From a virus: a stretch of 19,129 nucleotides of DNA. The position numbers were made by a program, and so were the translations under genes. Shown one piece after another: positions 50 through 17,965 of the stretch; position 1 is the stretch's first letter, and every line of letters begins with the position of its first letter. The stretch lies in UHGV virus genome UHGV-0124847. One strand, 5' to 3'. Under the pieces are notes generated by a model. It ran no database searches and was not told the DNA's origin. It was given only the letters and a program-made list of their open reading frames with translations.

Positions 50-1228
50 ATGGCTATAAGCGACACAAAACTGCGTACTATTTATGGTAAACCATATTCG
101 GGCCCACAAGAAGTGGCTGATGCAGATGGCCTCAGCGTACGAATTTCACCGAAGGGGGTCATCCAGTTCCAGTACCGCTATCGCTGGCATGGCAAGCCTA
201 ATCGCCTTGGGCTTGGTCGATACCCATCCCTGTCTTTGAAGGATGCCAGACAGATCACTGCTGACTTGCGAAAGCTCTATTTCTCAGGAACGGATCCACG
301 CACCTATTTTGAAGAGAAGGTGGAGAACTCCATGACGGTCGCCCAGTGTCTCGACTACTGGTTCGACAACTACGTCTCTACAACTCTCAGAGAAAAGACC
401 CAGGCACTTTACCGATCAACGGTTATGAAGCGCATGCATGACGCCTTCCCTAATCGTCCGGCATCTTCTATCACGGTTAAGCAATGGGTTGACCTGCTTA
501 CCGAAGAAGAAAAAGATAATCCACGCCGAGCAAGGCAGGTGCTAAGTCAACTAAGATCAGCAATTAGTTGGTGCATGCGGCGTCAGTTGATAGATAGTTG
601 CGCAATTATGAGCATCCAGCCAAGGGACTTCGGCTCCCGCGCTGAGGTAGGGGATCGGGTACTGTCGTATCACGAACTGGCTAAGATTTGGATTGCTATT
701 GAAAGAAGCCGTGCGTCTACGTCAAATAAGCTCCTTCATCAGATGCTTATGCTGTGGGGGGCGAGGCTCTCAGAGCTTAGGCTGGCAACAAAGACAGAAT
801 TTGACCTGCTGGAAAACGTATGGACCGTACCGAAAGAGCATAGCAAGATGGGTAATGTTATCCGCCGTCCAATCTTCGAACAAATTAAGCCTTTCCTCGA
901 AAAGGCCATGACAACGTACAATGATGTTCTTTTCCCTGGAGAAGACATAAACAAACCGATCAGCATCGCTGCAGCCAACCGATTCGTAAATAGAATAAGG
1001 GGAGGGATGGATATAGGTTACTGGCGAACACATGATTTCAGAAGAACGCTTGTTACACGTCTGTCCGAGATGAATGTCGAGCCTCATGTTACTGAGCGAA
1101 TGCTCGGTCATGAACTTGGCGGGATAATGTCCGTATACAATAAACACGACTGGATAGAGGCTCAGCGCAAAGCGTATGAGCTTCACGCTGATAAATTGTT
1201 CTGGCACATCAGGAACATTTCTGGTTAA
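50..1228 (+). CDS. int: Tyrosine site-specific integrase, P4-like family (N-terminal arm-binding region plus C-terminal catalytic domain)
   Basis: 392-aa ORF. N-terminus (GLSVRISPKGVIQFQYRYRWHGK...LGRYPSLSLKDAR) is typical of P4-type integrases; C-terminus carries HDFRRT and the HELGG...VY region expected for the catalytic His/Arg/Tyr residues. Sits at the edge of the phage gene block. Confidence 0.85.
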   Translation: MAISDTKLRTIYGKPYSGPQEVADADGLSVRISPKGVIQFQYRYRWHGKPNRLGLGRYPSLSLKDARQITADLRKLYFSGTDPRTYFEEKVENSMTVAQCLDYWFDNYVSTTLREKTQALYRSTVMKRMHDAFPNRPASSITVKQWVDLLTEEEKDNPRRARQVLSQLRSAISWCMRRQLIDSCAIMSIQPRDFGSRAEVGDRVLSYHELAKIWIAIERSRASTSNKLLHQMLMLWGARLSELRLATKTEFDLLENVWTVPKEHSKMGNVIRRPIFEQIKPFLEKAMTTYNDVLFPGEDINKPISIAAANRFVNRIRGGMDIGYWRTHDFRRTLVTRLSEMNVEPHVTERMLGHELGGIMSVYNKHDWIEAQRKAYELHADKLFWHIRNISG

Positions 1229-4917: not shown

Positions 4918-5093
4918 ATCGCATTCAGATATTTGTTTTGATTCACTGATGGAAAAGAATTTCTCTTAAGCAATTCCTCTCTCGATGGCATTGGCTTTAC
5001 GCGCTGGCGAATAATCATTTCTGCCGGAAGAATGCCGGGATTGTATGCAAGTCCTCTCATGGTAAATTCCTCAGTCATTACTGATAGCGCCAT
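4896..5093 (-). CDS. Hypothetical small protein (about 66 aa from the internal Met)
   Basis: Track ORF 4896..5210 overlaps ORF 5071..5385 in another frame. The internal Met ([10 protein letters not shown]) gives a short overlap consistent with operon packing. Confidence 0.3.
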
Positions 5094-5385
5094 AGCGTGA
5101 GCGGTAATTACGCAGGCGCGGGTCAATTTCAGGGAAGTGGGTATATGTGGCTTTGCGGAATGGTCGGATTGATGTCTGGTAAATTCGCTCGCGTTCTTCT
5201 TTCTCTGCAAGCCATATACAGTGGCGAAATTCCTTTTCCTTTTTCGTTTCCTGCGGTAGAGACATTATCCGATCGTAGTTTTTTCTGAATTTATCCAGCA
5301 CCTCCGATACGGAATTGCCGGAACAGCGGCGCGGGTCATCCGCACCATACAGAGGCGCTGGCATAATGGAATCCTTATTTTGCAA
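5071..5385 (-). CDS. Hypothetical phage protein (104 aa)
   Basis: ORF immediately downstream of the SSB-like gene (2-nt gap), same strand. Confidence 0.5.
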
Positions 5386-5387
5386 AT

Positions 5388-5771
5388 CTAGAAGGGAATT
5401 GAATCGTCGTATTCAGGATGATTTTGATGATTGCTACTTTGCTGCTGTTGGCTGTTTCCTGAAGTTGCAAATCCAATCTTTGCATTCAGTAATTCAAGAT
5501 TGATTGATTGACCATTTTGCCCCTGATAAACATCAACTCTGATGTTTTCTCCGGTAATTTCTACAATTCCACCTTCAACAAGAACACTACGGTAGTAATC
5601 CGCTTGCGCTCCCGGCTTGGCAAATACAACGGCGCTGTAGTTTGTCCATTCTTTCTTTTTTGTCTGGCGATCGTAATACTGAACGCCAGCACGGATGTTG
5701 AATCCGATATTTTCCCCGGCCTGAAACTCTCTTACGGGCTTGTTTAGTCTTACAGTAATCGAATGTGCCAT
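5388..5771 (-). CDS. SSB-like single-strand DNA-binding protein with acidic C-terminal tail
   Basis: 127-aa ORF directly downstream of erf. Gln/Ser-rich linker then a C-terminal ...PEYDDSIPF, resembling the DDDIPF tail of bacterial SSB. The N-terminal OB-fold assignment is inferred. Confidence 0.55.
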   Translation of the reverse strand: MAHSITVRLNKPVREFQAGENIGFNIRAGVQYYDRQTKKKEWTNYSAVVFAKPGAQADYYRSVLVEGGIVEITGENIRVDVYQGQNGQSINLELLNAKIGFATSGNSQQQQSSNHQNHPEYDDSIPF

Positions 5772-6376
5772 TAAGCAGCCGCTCCTTCTAATTCATTTCG
5801 TCTGATGTTGTAAACGTCCTGCGCTTTGTGCTGCTCCGGTGTGCCTTCGAGCATCTTCCACGCTTTGGCGAACGCCTGTTTAAGCTCTTCCACGTTGTTT
5901 TTCTGCATTGCTGCGTCAGTGAATGCTTTTAGAACCTGTTCAGGTGTAGGTGATGGTTTTGATTGCTTTGCTGCTGCGTTCTGCTGATGTTTATGCTCGT
6001 CTGTATCTGCATCTTTCGCATCATCAATGCCGAATAAACCATTGAGGCAATACTTGCGTGCATAAGAGCTTGTAGCTCCCGTAACTTGTGCAGAATCCAT
6101 TCCCTTCTTGCTTTCTTCCTCTCGTGCAAGAGCGGTTGCCGTATGACTGTTTTCGCCATCGGTAATAGTTGCCGTGGCTTTCACGTAATACCGATCACCA
6201 ATCAACACAACTTCATCGCTGATTGATAAAAACAGGCCATTCAGTAACGGCTTAACACCCTCAAGAATGTCTTCGCAGCTTCTGTATTTATATTTGCCGA
6301 ATGAGTTGTATTGATTCTTTGGCGCGTTCAGATTCTCCTGAATAGCTGCCAGTCTTGCGTAAAATTCTTTGCTCAT
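5771..6376 (-). CDS. erf: Erf-family single-strand annealing recombinase
   Basis: The N-terminal region (MSKEFYARLAAIQENLNAPKNQYNSFGKYKYRSCEDILEGVKP...) matches the P22 Erf family. The track ORF begins at an upstream TTG (6406); the ATG at 6376 is preferred because the upstream 56-aa ORF ends at 6387. Confidence 0.85.
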   Translation of the reverse strand: MSKEFYARLAAIQENLNAPKNQYNSFGKYKYRSCEDILEGVKPLLNGLFLSISDEVVLIGDRYYVKATATITDGENSHTATALAREEESKKGMDSAQVTGATSSYARKYCLNGLFGIDDAKDADTDEHKHQQNAAAKQSKPSPTPEQVLKAFTDAAMQKNNVEELKQAFAKAWKMLEGTPEQHKAQDVYNIRRNELEGAAA

Positions 6377-6386
6377 ATGATTGTTC

Positions 6387-6557
6387 TCAGAATGGACATG
6401 GCCCAAGGAAATAACGCTGATTTAATACTTCGACTCGGGACAAGTTAAGGCATACCCGCATTCCTTCGCGGTCGCCATTATGGCGATACCAGAGAGCTTT
6501 CTGCGTGTACATGCGTCTCTGTAACTTGCTCTCCTTCACTGTGGTTGCAAGTGACAT
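6387..6557 (-). CDS. Hypothetical small protein (56 aa, MSLATTVKESKLQRRMYTQKALWYRHNGDREGMRVCLNLSRVEVLNQRYFLGPCPF)
   Basis: Hand-translated. Strong AAGGAG Shine-Dalgarno 6 nt upstream; in-frame stop just upstream of the ATG; lies between the kil-like gene and erf. Confidence 0.45.
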   Translation of the reverse strand: MSLATTVKESKLQRRMYTQKALWYRHNGDREGMRVCLNLSRVEVLNQRYFLGPCPF

Positions 6558-6632
6558 GAATATCTCCTTCGTTACCGATTAAATCTTTCATCTGACGAAT
6601 GAATTCTTCGTCTGACCAGTTATCTGTAAAAC

Positions 6633-6785
6633 TCATTTCCTGCGATACCACGGAAGGTTGATAGCTGATTTCATCGCTTTATTTGCTTCAAGCCACATTT
6701 TTGAATCACCAATAAATCTGGCTATTACTGCTTTGTTCTGTGCAGCACGAAGCATCTGGTGATTGATGGCTATTTCATTGCGCAT
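6633..6785 (-). CDS. kil: Kil-like small protein (50 aa)
   Basis: Hand-translated ORF (MRNEIAINHQMLRAAQNKAVIARFIGDSKMWLEANKAMKSAINLPWYRRK) immediately downstream of cIII, as in lambda. The IAxFIGDxKM motif resembles my recollection of lambda Kil; not verified. Confidence 0.45.
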   Translation of the reverse strand: MRNEIAINHQMLRAAQNKAVIARFIGDSKMWLEANKAMKSAINLPWYRRK

Positions 6786-6925: not shown

Positions 6926-7894
6926 TTAGTAGGTTATTTTTGTTGCGAATACTTCGCCTTTTACGATGGCTGTTATGATATTTTTAGCAACATCTTCTGA
7001 TGCACCAACCTTGATAAGGTCAGTAAGTATTTTGTTATTTACTTCTTTCCGGTGAGCTTTATCCTTTGCTCTACGCTCTTCTTCGTCCTTGATTCTTTTT
7101 TCTTCTGCTATTCTGGCTTGCTCTTTTGCTTCAGCCTCGCGACGGATTCGTTCAGCCTCCTCCTGTGCTTTTCTGCGTTCTGCTTCAATTGCCGCCTGCT
7201 TTTCTCTTTCAGCTCGTTCTGCTGCCTCTTTTGCTTCGCGCTGTGCTCGTTGCTCGGCTTCAATGCGTTCACGCTCTGCACGTTCCGCTGCGGCCTTAGC
7301 TTCTGCTTCTCGCCTTGCTGCTGCTTCAATTTCGGCTTTTGCCTTTGCTTCGGCTTCTGCTCTGGCTTTCTCTTCAGCTTCTCTTTTTAAGCGTTCTTCA
7401 TGCTCTCGCTTTTCCTGCTCCGCTTTGAGTCTTGCCTCTTCTCTTTGGCGGTCAAATTCGCGATCCATCAAAATCGCTATTTCATGGTCAGACTCAATTT
7501 GCTTTGCGAGAGCTTCAGCTGCTGCCTTAGCTTCTTCTTCGGCTTTAATCCGTGCCTGTTCCTCCTCATAATCAGTAAGAGGCTGGCGCGCCTTGGCTTT
7601 CAGTTCATCAAGGCGATCGCGCACTGTCTTGCGGTTGGCATCAATTAGCTTTGGAATTTCCTTCAGTTCAGCAACAAGGTCTTTGCCAAGACCATCGAGA
7701 TATGTTTTCGTCTGCGCAACTTTATACGCCAGAGAAGCGATCTCCTTTCTGCCCTTTGCCGTTGTGATATCAGGCACAAAGGACATAACTTCACGTTCAA
7801 CCTTTTGAAGGATTTCTTCAATCTGGTCGGCAGACTGAAATACAGTCATTGCATTTGCTTTTTCAATAACAACTAAATCTGTTACTTCACTCAT
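6926..7894 (-). CDS. Phage coiled-coil protein with a long E/A/K/R-rich low-complexity central region
   Basis: 322-aa ORF with a GGAGG Shine-Dalgarno upstream. Structured N- and C-terminal regions flank about 150 aa of near-periodic EAKAAAERAERE-type sequence, which is visibly periodic at nucleotide level. Confidence 0.7.
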   Translation of the reverse strand: MSEVTDLVVIEKANAMTVFQSADQIEEILQKVEREVMSFVPDITTAKGRKEIASLAYKVAQTKTYLDGLGKDLVAELKEIPKLIDANRKTVRDRLDELKAKARQPLTDYEEEQARIKAEEEAKAAAEALAKQIESDHEIAILMDREFDRQREEARLKAEQEKREHEERLKREAEEKARAEAEAKAKAEIEAAARREAEAKAAAERAERERIEAEQRAQREAKEAAERAEREKQAAIEAERRKAQEEAERIRREAEAKEQARIAEEKRIKDEEERRAKDKAHRKEVNNKILTDLIKVGASEDVAKNIITAIVKGEVFATKITY

Positions 7895-11406: not shown

Positions 11407-12214
11407 GTTAGCTGATTACAGGCCTCAACTGGAGGTCGTGGAGCATCGCGTGGCAGATACCGAAGATGGTTTCATGCGCGTTGCTAACGAGATTACCGAC
11501 GGTCTGCTGATGGCTGATTTAACCGTCCGGCAGTTGAAGGTGATGCTCGCTATCATGCGCAAGACATACGGATTCAATAAGCCGATGGATCGACTCACAA
11601 ACACGCAGATAGCAGCCATGACAGGTATTCATCACACTCATGTTTGCGCTGCCAAGCGCCAGCTTATTGAGCGTAAATTCCTCATTGCTGATGGCGTGAA
11701 AATCGGAGTGAACAAGGTGGTTTCGCAGTGGATTAGCCAGGACAGCTTAACATTAGCTAAAACAGCTAATAAAACATTAGCCAAGTCGGCTAATGGGTAT
11801 AAGCCAAGTCAGCTAAACACAAAAGACAATATACAAAAGACAATAAATACAAATACCCCCTTACCCCCTAACGGGGGTGGCGATGGGCAGGTTAAACCTG
11901 AACGTCGCAAGGCGGAACGAATCGACTACGAATCCTTCCTGAACGCCTACAACACCGAAGTCGGTGACAGACTGCCACACGCTGTTGCGGTCAACGAGAA
12001 ACGCAAACGCCGCCTGAAGAAAATCATCCCGCAACTGAAAACGCCAAACGTGGACGGTTTCAGAGCGTATGTCAGGGCGTTTGTGCATCAGGCCAAGCCG
12101 TTTTACTTCGGAGACAACGACACGGGCTGGACGGCTGATTTTGATTACCTGCTGAGAGAAGACTCGTTAACGGGAGTTCGGGAAGGGAAGTTTGCAGACA
12201 GGGGGATTGCATGA
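11393..12214 (+). CDS. O: Replication initiator (phage O-like, replisome-organizer N-terminal domain)
   Basis: 273-aa ORF. N-terminal region ([55 protein letters not shown]) is typical of phage replication protein O N-terminal DNA-binding domains. The coding sequence contains an iteron array. Confidence 0.85.
11733..11880. other. Putative replication origin inside the initiator gene: dyad iterons, A-rich tract, GC palindrome
   Basis: Repeated about 17-bp dyads: TTAGCT-aaaac-AGCTAA (11753..11769), TTAGCC-aagtc-GGCTAA (11777..11793), taAGCC-aagtc-AGCTAA (11800..11816) at 23-24 bp spacing. Then an A-rich stretch (11817..11860) and CCCCCttaccccctaacGGGGG. Confidence 0.6.
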
Positions 12215-13587
12215 GACAGGATATCGAAGCGAGCGTTATCGGTGGCCTGCTGATTGGTGGATTAACTCCAACTGCCAGCGACGTTCTGGCAACGCTGGAG
12301 CCGGAAGCGTTTTCAATTCCGCTCTACAGGAAAGCCTTCGAGGTTATCCGCAAGCAGGCGAGAAACAGAAACCTAATCGATGCGCTGATGGTTGCCGAGG
12401 CGTGCGGAGAGGAGCATTTCACCTCAATCCTGATGACCAGCAAAAACTGCCCGAGTGCCGCAAACCTGAAGGGATATGCCGGAATGGTCGCGGATAACTA
12501 TCACCGCCGTCTGGTGCTGGAAATCATGGATGAAATGCGTGAACCAATTCAGAGCGGAACCATCGACGTATCGAGTCAGGCGATGGATGAACTTGTAAAG
12601 CGTCTTTCAGTCATCAGAAAGCCACGTGACGAGGTAAAACCTGTACGGTTAGGGGAAATCATCACCGACTACACTGACACGCTTGACAGGCGTCTGAGGA
12701 ACGGAGAAGAGTCAGATACCCTGAAGACCGGAATCGAAGAACTTGATGCCATCACCGGAGGGATGAACGCAGAAGACCTGGTGATTATCGCCGCTCGTCC
12801 TGGTATGGGGAAAACCGAACTGGCGCTGAAGATTGCCGAAGGTGTGGCAAGCCGCGTTATTCCTGGTTCTGACGTCCGGCGCGGGGTATTGATTTTCTCA
12901 ATGGAAATGAGCGCATTGCAGATTGCAGAGCGAAGCATTGCCAACGCCGGGAGGATGTCGGTTAGCGTACTGCGAAATCCTGCATCGATGGATGACGAGG
13001 GCTGGGCACGTGTTGCTAACGGCATGAGTCAGCTTGCAGATTTGGATGTATGGGTAGTCGATGCTTCGCGGTTATCGGTCGAAGAAATACGCTCAATCGC
13101 AGAACGGCATAAGCAGGAAAATCCAAACCTGTCACTCATCATGGCGGATTATCTTGGCCTGATTGAGAAGCCGAAAGCAGACCGCAACGACCTCGCAATT
13201 GCTCACATCTCCAGAAGCCTGAAGGCGATGGCGAAAGACCTGAAAACACCGGTTATCTCCCTGAGTCAGCTTTCGCGCGATGTTGAGAAGCGACCAAACA
13301 AACGCCCGACAAACGCAGATTTGCGTGATTCAGGAAGCATTGAACAGGACGCAGACTCAATCATCATGCTCTATCGGGAAGCGGTATATGATGAGAACAG
13401 TAGCGCCGCGCCATTTGCTGAAATCATCGTGACGAAAAACCGTTTTGGCTCGCTTGGTACAGTTTACCAGCGGTTCTGCAACGGACACTTTGTTGCATGT
13501 GACCAGGATGAAGCCAGACAGATTTGCACAGCATCAAATGCACCTGCTGCGCGTGGCAGACGATATGCACAAGGGGCTGACGTATGA
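12211..13587 (+). CDS. Replicative DNA helicase, DnaB family
   Basis: 458-aa ORF with Walker A ([15 protein letters not shown]), Walker B-like ([10 protein letters not shown]) and a DnaB C-terminal region ([17 protein letters not shown]...[20 protein letters not shown]). Start overlaps the O stop. Confidence 0.9.
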
Positions 13588-13664
13588 CCATCTACATCAC
13601 TGAGCTAATAACAGGCCTGCTGGTAATCGCAGGCCTTTTTATTTGGGGGAGAGGGAAGTCATGA
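13584..13664 (+). CDS. Possible 26-aa hydrophobic micropeptide ([26 protein letters not shown])
   Basis: ATG overlaps the helicase stop (GTATGA) and its stop overlaps the ninB ATG (TCATGA). Single hydrophobic helix. The same span forms a terminator hairpin, so coding status is uncertain. Confidence 0.3.
13613..13645 (+). terminator. Intrinsic terminator-like hairpin between the helicase and ninB
   Basis: AGGCCTGC-tggtaatc-GCAGGCCT perfect 8-bp stem followed by TTTTTATTT. Confidence 0.5.
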
Positions 13665-14101
13665 AAAAACTAACCTTTGAAATTCGATCTCCAGCACATC
13701 AGAAAAACGCTATTCACGCAGTACAGCAAATTCTTCCAGACCCAACCAAACCAATCGTAGTAACCATTCAGGAACGCAACCGCAGCTTAGACCAAAACCG
13801 AAAGCTTTGGGCTTGCCTTGGTGACGTCTCTCGTCAGGTTGAATGGCATGGTCGCTGGCTGGATGCAGAAAGCTGGAAGTGTGTGTTTACCGCAGCATTA
13901 AAGCAGCAGGACGTTGTTCCTAACCTTGCCGGGAATGGCTTTGTGGTAATAGGCCAGTCAACCAGCAGGATGCGTGTAAGCGAATTTGCGGAGCTATTAG
14001 AGCTTATACAGGCATTCGGTACAGAGCGTGGCGTTAAGTGGTCAGACGAAGCGCGACTGGCTCTGGAGTGGAAAGCGAGATGGGGAGACAGGGCTGCATG
14101 A
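13661..14101 (+). CDS. ninB: NinB (Orf-family recombination mediator)
   Basis: The protein from [68 protein letters not shown] matches lambda NinB as I recall it. The track ORF starts at an upstream TTG; the ATG at 13661 is preferred. Confidence 0.9.
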   Translation: MKKLTFEIRSPAHQKNAIHAVQQILPDPTKPIVVTIQERNRSLDQNRKLWACLGDVSRQVEWHGRWLDAESWKCVFTAALKQQDVVPNLAGNGFVVIGQSTSRMRVSEFAELLELIQAFGTERGVKWSDEARLALEWKARWGDRAA

Positions 14102-17160: not shown

Positions 17161-17345
17161 ACGCCACAATTCAAACGATACCAGAGCTTCTTATCCAGAC
17201 ACGAGGCAATCAGACCGAAGTGGCAAGGATGCTTTCCTGCGCAAGAGGAACAGTGCTCAAGTACAACCGAGACAGCAAAGGCGAGCGTCACGCAATAGTT
17301 AACGGCGTCCTGATGGTCAAACAGGGCAAGAGGGGAAGACGATGA
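17157..17345 (+). CDS. ninH: NinH-like small HTH protein
   Basis: 62-aa ORF whose YGNQTEVARxLxCxRGTVxKY...HAIVNxVLMV region parallels lambda NinH. Confidence 0.75.
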   Translation: MNATIQTIPELLIQTRGNQTEVARMLSCARGTVLKYNRDSKGERHAIVNGVLMVKQGKRGRR

Positions 17346-17965
17346 GACTCGAAAGCGTAGCTAAATTTCATTCGCCAAAAAGCCCAATGATGAGCGACTC
17401 ACCACGGGCTACGGCTTCTGACTCTCTTTCCGGTACTGATGTGATGGCTGCTATGGGGATGGCGCAATCACAAGCCGGATTCGGTATGGCTGCATTCTGT
17501 GGTAAGCACGAACTCAGCCAGAACGACAAACAAAAGGCTATCAACTATCTGAAGCAATTTGCACACAAGGTATCGGGGAAATACCGTGGTGTGGCAAAGC
17601 TCGAAGGAAATACTAAGGCAAAGGTACTGCAAGTGCTCGCAACATTCGCTTATGCGGATTATTGCCGTAGTGCCGCTACGCCGGGCGCAAGATGCAGAGA
17701 TTGCCACGGTACAGGCCGTGCGGTTGATATAGCCAAAACAGAGCAGTGGGGGAGAGTTGTCGAGAAAGAGTGCGGAAGATGCAAAGGCGTCGGCTATTCA
17801 AGGATGCCAGCAAGCGCAGCATATCGCGCTGTGACGATGCTAATCCCAAACCTTACTCAACCCACCTGGTCACGCACTGTTAAGCCGCTGTATGACGCTC
17901 TGGTGGTGCAATGCCACAAAGAAGAGTCAATCGCAGACAGCATTTTGAATACGGTCACACGTTAG
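17342..17965 (+). CDS. Q: Q late-gene antiterminator (lambda type)
   Basis: 207-aa ORF essentially colinear with lambda Q as I recall it (MRLESVAKFHSPKSPMMSDSPRATASDSLSGTDV...), including the Cys-rich zinc region (CRDCHGTGR...CGRCKGVGY). Confidence 0.9.
   Translation: MRLESVAKFHSPKSPMMSDSPRATASDSLSGTDVMAAMGMAQSQAGFGMAAFCGKHELSQNDKQKAINYLKQFAHKVSGKYRGVAKLEGNTKAKVLQVLATFAYADYCRSAATPGARCRDCHGTGRAVDIAKTEQWGRVVEKECGRCKGVGYSRMPASAAYRAVTMLIPNLTQPTWSRTVKPLYDALVVQCHKEESIADSILNTVTR

What the first reader, a model, noticed from the sequence alone, without database searches (positions are those of the whole stretch)
5388..6376. Erf plus SSB-like module replaces lambda Red; SSB-like protein ends in a host-SSB-type tail
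The recombination module is Erf-type rather than exo/bet/gam, while the nin region and Q are lambda-like, so the early-left arm is mosaic. The adjacent 127-aa protein ends in ...PEYDDSIPF, closely resembling the DDDIPF tip of bacterial SSB that recruits many host replication and repair proteins. A phage protein carrying this tail could compete for or recruit host SSB-interaction partners.
Basis: partly seen in the sequence, partly recalled or inferred. Interest (0 to 1): 0.45.

Follow-up and report, generated by a model that had tools for sequence, protein, structure and literature searches.

The report
Phage Erf recombinase with divergent SSB

Summary
5771-6376(-) is an Erf annealase (Pfam ERF 1.9e-44; 75% identical to P22 Erf). 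5388-5771(-) is a 127-aa protein ending YDDSIPF. Abc2 (5071-5364) follows directly, so the module is Abc2 + SSB + Erf with no exo/bet/gam.

The 127-aa protein has no Pfam hit. A confident AlphaFold model shows an OB fold, and its best PDB matches are bacterial SSBs, E. coli SSB first. A profile alignment to E. coli SSB places aromatic residues at W40, W54, F60 and W88. The tail consensus [FWY]-D-D-[DS]-I-P-F is kept in about 65% of a small family, while the Q-rich linker varies freely. An erf gene lies beside or near the gene in five of six distant contexts.

The DNA is 96-98% identical to HK97, Sf101 and HK106. HK97 gp40 was already named "SSB-1b" from its predicted fold (Genome Res 2025), and tail-dependent SSB-annealase coupling is published for HK620 and lambda Red-beta.

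Most likely the protein coats ssDNA and uses its tail to recruit Erf and possibly host partners. That step is inferred, not shown. The finding is already known, low in interest, and mainly exposes an annotation gap ("hypothetical protein" in 579 of 5426 E. coli genomes).

The parts
5771..6376 (-). erf: 201-aa Erf-family single-strand annealing protein (stop at 5771-5773).
   Evidence: PF04404 1.9e-44. phrog_155 3.9e-57. 75% identical to P22 Erf. 96-98% nt identity to HK97, Sf101 and HK106.
5948..6376 (-). Erf N-terminal annealing domain (residues 1-143). Homologous to P22 erf at about 80% nt identity.
   Evidence: The Pfam ERF match covers residues 5-143. Sliding identity to P22 is 77-88% from 6371 to about 5982.
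5774..5956 (-). Erf C-terminal domain (residues 141-201), a predicted three-helix bundle. It is a swapped variant, only about 35% identical to the P22 Erf CTD.
   Evidence: AF2 pLDDT 90, helices at 5-18, 22-36 and 41-59 of the fragment. Identity to the P22 CTD is 0.31-0.40 across homologs. DNA homology to P22 is lost from about 5930.
5388..5771 (-). 127-aa divergent SSB (HK97 gp40 type, 'SSB-1b'). The start codon overlaps the erf stop by 1 nt. Stop at 5388-5390.
5463..5771 (-). OB-fold core (residues 1-103), with aromatic residues Y32, W42, F50 and Y82 at the positions of EcSSB W40, W54, F60 and W88.
   Evidence: Block-mean pLDDT 80-95 over residues 1-100, topology b1-b3, helix 55-63, b4-b5. 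Alignment. Y32, W42 and F50 are invariant in 45 sequences.
5412..5462 (-). Short disordered Q/N/S-rich linker (residues 104-120).
   Evidence: pLDDT below 50 for residues 107-121. Linker length is 4-89 residues in the family (median 21), and 80% of its residues are Q/P/N/G/S/A.
5391..5411 (-). C-terminal tip Y-D-D-S-I-P-F (residues 121-127). The E. coli SSB tip is F-D-D-D-I-P-F.
   Evidence: Family consensus [FWY]DD[DS]IPF, with P invariant, F in 145 of 148 and I in 116 of 148.
5071..5364 (-). abc2: 97-aa anti-RecBCD protein Abc2. This is the third gene of the module and was omitted by the finding.
   Evidence: PF11043 3.4e-63. phrog_656 4.8e-55. 93-100% nt identity to P22 abc2.
6387..6557 (-). 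56-aa ORF immediately upstream of erf (HK97 gp42 type), at the position of P22 arf. Possible accessory gene, function unknown.
   Evidence: phrog_1723 9.4e-36. HK97 annotation.
6478..6636 (-). 52-aa ORF (HK97 gp42.1 / HK75 gp33 type) that overlaps the previous ORF in another frame.
   Evidence: phrog_2123 1.4e-41. 90% identical to HK75 gp33.

Best explanation
This is the HK97-type recombination module of a lambdoid prophage. It is transcribed leftward in the early-left operon and consists of Erf (annealase), a very divergent bacterial-type SSB (HK97 gp40, 'SSB-1b') and Abc2 (RecBCD modifier). It has no nuclease of its own.

Shown here:
- The family assignments of Erf and Abc2.
- An OB fold closest to bacterial SSBs, with aromatic residues at the four ssDNA-stacking positions of E. 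coli SSB.
- A short disordered linker and a conserved [FWY]DD[DS]IPF tip.
- 1-nt start/stop coupling to erf.
- Erf-SSB synteny that persists down to about 50% identity.

Inferred from established knowledge:
- Abc2 redirects RecBCD so that DNA ends are resected.
- The phage SSB, probably an oligomer, coats the ssDNA.
- Its C-terminal tip docks onto Erf, probably on Erf's three-helix C-terminal domain, so that Erf gains access to SSB-coated ssDNA and anneals complementary strands. This is what was shown for HK620 SSB with Sak4 and for E. coli SSB with the lambda Red-beta CTD.
- Because the tip is nearly identical to the host's, it may also engage host SSB clients and the phage NinB/Orf mediator encoded in the same window.
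For: Identity:
- The DNA is 96-98% identical to Sf101, HK106 and HK97. The HK97 homolog is Gp40, lying between erf and abc2.
- PMC12315714 names HK97 gp40 'SSB-1b' from its AF3 fold and lists an HK75-type class (anti-RecBCD + SSB + SAP, no nuclease) with 27 phages.

Fold and homology:
- AF2 pLDDT 82.7, with an OB core.
- Every one of the 50 listed Foldseek matches (46 at E<=1e-3) is an SSB, PriB or mitochondrial SSB, with E. coli SSB first at 2.4e-5.
- hhalign to EcSSB gives E 6.6e-6, with Y32/W42/F50/Y82 aligned to W40/W54/F60/W88.
- There are weak PF00436 hits in 7 of 45 members and a weak TIGR00621 hit.

Tail:
- It is conserved in 148 of 229 members, against a hypervariable linker.
- Canonical SSBs of Sf6 and ES18, and the unrelated HK620 SSB, sit in the same slot. 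They end NFDDSDIPF, NFDDEIPF and NDYPPF.

Synteny:
- ERF lies immediately upstream in L085, L086/L087, L089, L090 and L091, and within 1 kb in L088.

Precedent:
- The last 6 residues of HK620 SSB are needed for Sak4 binding and stimulation (PMC5928155).
- The Red-beta CTD is a three-helix bundle that binds the SSB C-terminal peptide (PMC6393309).
- The Erf CTD here is predicted as a three-helix bundle, pLDDT 90.
Against: - There is no experimental ssDNA-binding, oligomerisation or interaction data for this family.
- The protein fails the curated sequence models. It has no PF00436 hit at E<=1 and scores 16 bits on TIGR00621 against a cut-off of 54.
- TM-scores to solved SSBs are modest, 0.35-0.54.
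- About a third of family members lack the tip yet still sit next to erf (P0093, P0095, P0110). The tip is therefore not obligatory for pairing with Erf.
- P22 works with the same Erf N-terminal domain and no phage SSB at all.
Confidence: 0.75

Rival explanations
1. Host-hub hijack or competition. On this view the main role of the tail is to recruit host SSB clients to phage ssDNA (RecJ, RecQ, ExoI, PriA, chi, RecO), or to titrate them away from host SSB. Recruiting Erf would be secondary.
For: The tip differs from the E. coli SSB tip at only 2 of its last 7 positions. The module lacks its own nuclease (PMC12315714), so borrowing a host exonuclease through the tail would make sense. The role of the SSB C-terminus as a hub is established (cited in PMC5928155).
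Against: There is no direct evidence. The conserved synteny is with Erf specifically, while the other partners vary (Abc2, RdgC, exonuclease, HNH). This points to Erf as the constant client. This rival is not exclusive of the main explanation.
Confidence: 0.25
2. The protein is primarily a replication SSB. It would serve the phage O / DnaB-like helicase replisome, or protect rolling-circle ssDNA, and would lie next to erf only for co-expression.
For: The window encodes its own O protein and a DnaB-like helicase. Bacterial-type SSBs are replisome components, which is general knowledge.
Against: The gene is in the early-left recombination block, is translationally coupled to erf, and follows erf in unrelated phage backgrounds. 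The replication genes lie in the other operon. Many lambdoid phages with the same replication genes lack any SSB; 177 of 246 Rec modules have none (PMC12315714).
Confidence: 0.12
3. The protein is not an ssDNA binder. It would be an OB-fold protein that acts like P22 Abc1, which occupies the same slot, as a RecBCD modulator, or as a decoy or trigger for defence systems.
For: It occupies exactly the position of P22 abc1, with the same 1-nt overlap with erf. Phage SSBs are known triggers of a retron system (noted in bioRxiv 10.64898/2026.07.10.737580).
Against: It shows no similarity to Abc1. Aromatic residues sit at all four EcSSB stacking positions. All significant fold matches are ssDNA-binding SSB or PriB proteins.
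Confidence: 0.05

Closest known systems
HK97 gp40 ('SSB-1b' of Casjens/Smith, Genome Res 2025, PMC12315714), with its copies in HK633, mEp043, Sf101, HK106, CUS-3 and Stx1a phages
   Same: It is the same gene. The surrounding DNA is 96.2% identical in HK97 and up to 97.6% in Sf101, and the protein is 92.9-99.2% identical in the listed copies (HK633, mEp043, Sf101, mEp506, an Stx1a phage). The neighbours erf and abc2 are the same.
   Different: Nothing material. The main text of the 2025 paper assigns it from the predicted fold and does not discuss the C-terminal tip. RefSeq still calls it 'Gp40' or 'hypothetical protein'.
E. coli SSB (bacterial SSB family, PF00436 / TIGR00621)
   Same: OB fold, aromatic residues at the positions of W40, W54, F60 and W88, a disordered Q/G/P-type linker, and a tip of the type F-D-D-D-I-P-F.
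   Different: At most 18% identity in structural alignments. It falls below every curated sequence threshold. The linker is about 17 residues instead of about 60, and the total length is 127 aa against 178 aa. Position -4 is S rather than D, and position -7 is Y rather than F. The oligomeric state is unknown.
HK620 SSB (HkaK, 'SSB-2') with Sak4 (Hutinet et al. 2018, PMC5928155)
   Same: The same slot between the annealase gene and abc2. It has a C-terminal NDYPPF tip, and there is experimental proof that the last six residues mediate annealase binding to SSB-coated ssDNA and stimulate annealing and recombineering.
   Different: It is unrelated in sequence (hhalign probability 0.3%). Its partner annealase is Sak4 (RecA-like), not Erf.
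Canonical phage SSB-1 of Sf6, ES18, epsilon34 and HK75
   Same: It lies immediately downstream of erf in the same operon, and in Sf6 and ES18 it has an IPF tip.
   Different: These are robust PF00436-type SSBs that are recognisably similar to E. coli SSB (note the MASRGVNKVI... start). They pair with the P22-type Erf CTD and often with an extra nuclease gene (PMC2629481).
P22 erf-abc1-abc2 module
   Same: The Erf N-terminal domain is about 90% identical in protein, Abc2 is 93-100% identical in DNA, and gene order and erf/downstream-gene overlap are the same.
   Different: P22 has Abc1 (94 aa, unrelated) instead of an SSB, and a different Erf CTD (about 35% identity). Erf domain swaps of this kind were described before (PMC2629481).
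Lambda Red (exo/bet/gam) and the Red-beta CTD interaction with the SSB C-terminus (Caldwell et al. 2019, PMC6393309)
   Same: The same genomic position and role. The annealase has an N-terminal annealing domain and a small three-helix CTD, and in lambda the CTD binds the SSB C-terminal peptide.
   Different: No exo, bet or gam homologs are present here. Lambda uses host SSB only. A structural relationship between the Erf CTD and the Red-beta CTD could not be established.

Membership tests
Bacterial SSB family (PF00436 / TIGR00621) | Passes the curated sequence model | tested here: not met
   No Pfam family at E<=1 for the window protein. TIGR00621 gives 16.1 bits against a cut-off of 53.95. 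Only 7 of 45 relatives give weak PF00436 hits, best E 0.0038. A HMMER profile of the family finds only 212 representative clusters and does not reach canonical SSBs.
Bacterial SSB family (PF00436 / TIGR00621) | SSB-type OB fold (b1-b2-b3-helix-b4-b5) | tested here: met
Bacterial SSB family (PF00436 / TIGR00621) | Aromatic ssDNA-stacking residues equivalent to EcSSB W40, W54, F60 and W88 | tested here: met
   hhalign (84.8% probability, E 6.6e-6) aligns Y32, W42, F50 and Y82 with these positions. Y32, W42 and F50 are invariant in 45 sequences.
Bacterial SSB family (PF00436 / TIGR00621) | Disordered low-complexity linker followed by an acidic tip ending I-P-F | tested here: met
   Residues 107-121 have pLDDT below 50. 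The tip is YDDSIPF. The tip is conserved in 148 of 229 members.
Bacterial SSB family (PF00436 / TIGR00621) | Homo-oligomer (tetramer or dimer) that binds ssDNA with high affinity | not testable with these tools
   Only monomer prediction was available, and no biochemistry exists for this family.
Erf family of single-strand annealing proteins (PF04404) | Passes the curated model, and is orthologous to the genetically defined P22 Erf | tested here: met
   151.7 bits against a cut-off of 25. 75% identity to P22 Erf over the full length.
Erf family of single-strand annealing proteins (PF04404) | Two-domain organisation: an N-terminal ring-forming DNA-binding domain, a flexible linker and a C-terminal domain | tested here: met
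   The Pfam match covers residues 5-143. The CTD fragment 141-201 folds as a confident three-helix bundle. The mosaic joint with P22 falls at the linker. Ring formation itself is not testable here.
HK75/HK97-type lambdoid Rec module (anti-RecBCD + SSB + SAP, no nuclease; PMC12315714) | Contiguous abc2, ssb and SAP genes in the early-left operon, with no nuclease gene in the cluster | tested here: met
   Abc2 at 5071-5364, SSB at 5388-5771 and Erf at 5771-6376 are contiguous. They are flanked by kil and cIII upstream and by ea genes downstream. No nuclease family was found in the cluster.
Lambda Red system (exo/bet/gam) | Presence of Exo, Beta and Gam homologs | tested here: not met
   None of the early-left ORFs scanned matches these families. 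The annealase is Erf-type. The relationship is one of position and function only.
P22 Abc1 | Sequence similarity to P22 Abc1, which occupies the same slot | tested here: not met
   BLASTP finds no alignment at E<=100.

The most novel reading that the evidence does not exclude
In nuclease-less Abc2 + SSB + Erf modules, the phage SSB may be a dedicated adaptor. Its host-type tip would dock Erf through Erf's three-helix CTD. It would also borrow host SSB clients, such as a 5'-3' exonuclease or helicase like RecJ or RecQ, or PriA. In that way it would replace the missing phage exonuclease and channel host enzymes onto phage ssDNA. The swappable unit 'Erf CTD + downstream gene' would then be a partner-matching cassette.
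Probability: 0.2. Interest if true: 0.5.

Novelty: already known. Interest (0 to 1): 0.2.

Why it matters
The practical value is mainly in annotation and tool-building.

- **Annotation gap:** the gene is present in 579 of 5426 complete E. coli genomes, labelled 'hypothetical protein'. No Pfam or NCBIfam model captures the family.
- **Untested pair:** an Erf plus cognate-SSB pair has not been tested biochemically. It could be used for recombineering, as other annealase-SSB pairs have been.
- **General pattern:** three SSB types occupy the same slot in lambdoid phages and all keep an IPF/PPF-type tip (canonical SSB-1, very divergent SSB-1b, and the sequence-unrelated SSB-2). This underlines that the tip, rather than the core sequence, is the selected interface. 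The point is consistent with existing literature and does not change it.

Tried and rejected
1. **Is the protein a diverged or truncated homolog of P22 Abc1, which sits in the same slot?** No similarity at all.
2. **Is it related to the characterised HK620 SSB?** No; hhalign probability is 0.3%.
4. **Homolog search with the Erf CTD alone.** It returned only nine near-identical fragments.
5. **Related loci in viral contigs.** The best 80 were all 97-100% identical and gave no diversity. Context for distant relatives came instead.
6. **Does the Erf CTD type specify the downstream partner?** The window-type CTD always came with the 127-aa gene, even behind an N-terminal domain 99% identical to P22's. 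However, the P22-type CTD occurs both with Abc1 (P22) and with canonical SSBs (Sf6, ES18, epsilon34). Adjacency alone explains the linkage, so this is not evidence for a specific CTD-partner code.
7. **Direct sequence search of PDB.** The single-sequence search found nothing meaningful. The profile search gave only a marginal SSB hit, 4dam at E 0.37.

Full report
**What is there**

The finding's coordinates bracket two minus-strand genes exactly.
- The upstream gene (6376 to 5771, 201 aa) matches Pfam ERF at 1.9e-44 and PHROG 155 'Erf-like ssDNA annealing protein' at 3.9e-57. It is 75% identical to P22 Erf.
- The downstream gene (5771 to 5388, 127 aa) starts at an ATG that shares one base with the erf stop codon (TAATG). 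It ends ...NHPEYDDSIPF.
- Directly downstream, outside the finding, lies Abc2 (5071-5364; PF11043 3.4e-63, phrog_656 4.8e-55).
- Upstream lie two small overlapping ORFs, then kil, cIII, a 322-aa charged protein, an N-like antiterminator and the repressor.
- None of the early-left ORFs scanned matches exo, bet or gam.

The window as a whole is a lambdoid prophage segment. It runs from an integrase through cI/cII, O, a DnaB-like helicase, NinB, Rha/Ant, RusA and a PF03589-type Q to a lysozyme.

**Is the 127-aa protein an SSB?**

By ordinary sequence tests it is not recognisable.
- It has no Pfam family at E<=1.
- It has no PDB sequence match.
- BLASTP against E. coli SSB aligns only the last roughly 30 residues.
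- It scores 16 bits on TIGR00621 against a cut-off of 54.
- PHROG 44 ('single strand DNA binding protein') does match, at 1e-27.

Structure and profile methods give a clear answer.
- I collected 313 homologs, aligned 45 diverse ones (A1) and predicted the structure. Mean pLDDT is 82.7, block means over residues 1-100 are 80-95, and the topology is three strands, a helix at 55-63, then further strands. The segment 107-121 is disordered.
- Foldseek ranks E. coli SSB first (1qvc, E 2.4e-5, probability 1.00). All 46 matches at E<=1e-3 are SSB, PriB or mitochondrial SSB. TM-scores are only 0.35-0.54.
- A profile-sequence alignment of A1 to E. coli SSB gives 84.8% probability (E 6.6e-6). It places Y32, W42, F50 and Y82 on W40, W54, F60 and W88, the four aromatic residues that stack on ssDNA in E. 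coli SSB (the role of these residues is established knowledge). Y32, W42 and F50 are invariant in A1.
- Seven of 45 relatives give weak PF00436 hits.

I conclude that this is a highly divergent branch of the bacterial SSB superfamily. It works like an SSB by every computational criterion but fails the curated sequence-membership thresholds.

**The tail**

- Among 229 family members of at least 115 aa, 148 end in [ILVMPA]-P-[FYW].
- Counting back from the C-terminus, the residues in those 148 are: F in 145, P in all 148, I in 116, then D/S, D, D and an aromatic residue. The pattern is therefore [FWY]-D-D-[DS]-I-P-F, against E. coli F-D-D-D-I-P-F.
- The preceding linker ranges from 4 to 89 residues and is 80% Q/P/N/G/S/A.
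- In the window, this is the only one of 243 stop-to-stop segments with such an end.

So the tip is under selection. It is an ancestral feature of the family and not a recently acquired mimic.

The same slot is occupied in other lambdoid phages by other SSB types:
- Sf6 and ES18 carry canonical SSBs ending NFDDSDIPF and NFDDEIPF.
- HK620 carries an unrelated SSB ending NDYPPF.

**Context and conservation of the pairing**

- The DNA of 5200-6600 is 96-98% identical to Sf101, HK106, HK97, CUS-3, HK544 and Stx1a phages. In HK97 the gene is Gp40, between erf and abc2.
- 579 of 5426 complete E. coli genomes carry it at 90% nt identity or more, annotated 'hypothetical protein'.
- In the phage collection it occurs in about 57 enterobacterial phage records. 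About 320 Vibrio phage records hold 28-50% identical relatives, some annotated as SSB or OB-fold proteins.
- The family is small: 212 representative clusters out of 1.84 billion.
- For six relatives at 52-64% identity, I looked up the genomic context. An ERF gene lies immediately upstream in four and within 1 kb in a fifth. The other neighbours differ from case to case: RdgC, a PolB-type exonuclease, HNH, or Arf.
- Erf is therefore the constant companion.

**Mosaic structure**

Against P22, DNA identity behaves as follows:
- 77-88% from the erf start to about position 5980;
- a decay to random levels from about 5930, across the last roughly 50 erf codons and the whole 127-aa gene;
- a jump to 93-100% at the abc2 start.

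P22 has Abc1 in this slot, which is unrelated. The two Erf C-terminal domains are only about 35% identical. Salmonella prophages exist whose Erf N-terminal domain is 99% P22-like but whose C-terminal domain is window-type, followed by the 127-aa gene and Abc2.

Such Erf domain swaps are already in the literature (PMC2629481). The P22-type CTD also occurs with canonical SSBs. I therefore do not read the swap as proof of a CTD-partner code.

**How it most likely works**

Shown: the identities, the fold, the tip, the gene coupling and the synteny described above.

Inferred:
- Abc2 modifies RecBCD. This role is established for P22 Abc2, as summarised in PMC5928155.
- The phage SSB coats the resected ssDNA.
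- Its tip recruits Erf onto SSB-coated ssDNA for annealing.

Three precedents support the last step.
- The last six residues of HK620 SSB are required for Sak4 binding to SSB-ssDNA and for stimulation of annealing and recombineering (PMC5928155).
- The Red-beta CTD, a three-helix bundle, binds the nine C-terminal residues of E. coli SSB (PMC6393309).
- Annealase activity in vivo depends on the SSB tail (PMC11611040; PMC12054835).

The Erf CTD here is predicted as a confident three-helix bundle (pLDDT 90). The fold search cannot discriminate among the thousands of such bundles.

Because the tip is almost the host's, host SSB clients and the phage NinB/Orf mediator (13643-14101) are plausible additional clients.

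One caveat applies. About a third of family members lack the tip and still sit beside erf.

**Novelty**

HK97 gp40 was named 'SSB-1b' in 2025 on the basis of its AF3 fold, within a survey of 325 lambdoid phages. That survey defines an anti-RecBCD + SSB + SAP module class (PMC12315714). Its main text does not mention the tip, and nobody has studied the protein experimentally. Tail-bearing phage SSBs next to annealases are nevertheless a well-described theme.

The finding is therefore correct, already known in substance, and of low surprise. Its residual value is the annotation gap and an untested Erf-SSB pair.

Noticed in passing
L096:5910-6416 (HK75 gp31); L094:2649-3128 (Sf6 gene 26); proteins P0247, P0274, P0276: In the HK75 canonical SSB, the tip ...MDFDDDIPF is followed by a 15-residue extension, APVTLPFPRHAIHAI. 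Its last 13 residues match the C-terminus of the Sf6 endonuclease-like gene 26 exactly. Three SSB-1b-family representatives also continue after IPF, with AP[IV]GL... extensions. A capped tip should not present a free terminal Phe carboxylate, so these may be gene fusions or masked tails.
   Followed up: partly
window 6478-6636 (-) and 6387-6557 (-): Two small ORFs overlap in different frames between kil and erf, at the position of P22 arf. PHROGs labels both 'recombinase' without an evident basis. The 52-aa ORF is 90% identical to HK75 gp33. A 2026 preprint reports that gp33 is sufficient to trigger toxicity of the P2 OLD defence protein (bioRxiv 10.64898/2026.07.10.737580). The 56-aa ORF ends ...GPCPF.
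   Followed up: partly
window 6926-7894 (-): A 322-aa protein that is extremely rich in E, K, A and R, probably a coiled coil. It has no Pfam family and matches only PHROGs of unknown function. The HF4s record annotates its homolog as an 'antitoxin ... similar to phi80 Agt'.
   Followed up: no
L002:2787-3071 (phage HF4s 'ssb protein'): The HF4s copy of the SSB-like gene matches only through residue 40 and then diverges. This is a frameshifted copy or a sequencing error. Several database relatives are likewise truncated or fused (P0026, P0046, P0054, P0058, P0062).
   Followed up: partly
L085:3021-3503, L086:2591-3070, L090:4001-4513: Relatives at about 53% identity lack the IPF tip. They end ...GGYNNNRG...NLPDDDWV and ...GNFNQPQR, yet they still lie immediately downstream of erf, with RdgC or a PolB-type exonuclease nearby. 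Their hosts are unknown.
   Followed up: partly
window 13643-14101 (+), 12211-13587 (+), 17342-17965 (+): The phage also encodes NinB/Orf, a recombination mediator that acts on SSB-coated ssDNA. It has a DnaB-like helicase instead of lambda P, and a PF03589-type Q rather than the lambda Q family. 'Lambda-like' therefore means lambdoid, closer to P22/HK022/HK97 types.
   Followed up: no
window 50-1228 (+): The integrase is on the strand opposite to the early-left operon. In HK97 and HK620, int lies on the same strand as that operon.
   Followed up: no
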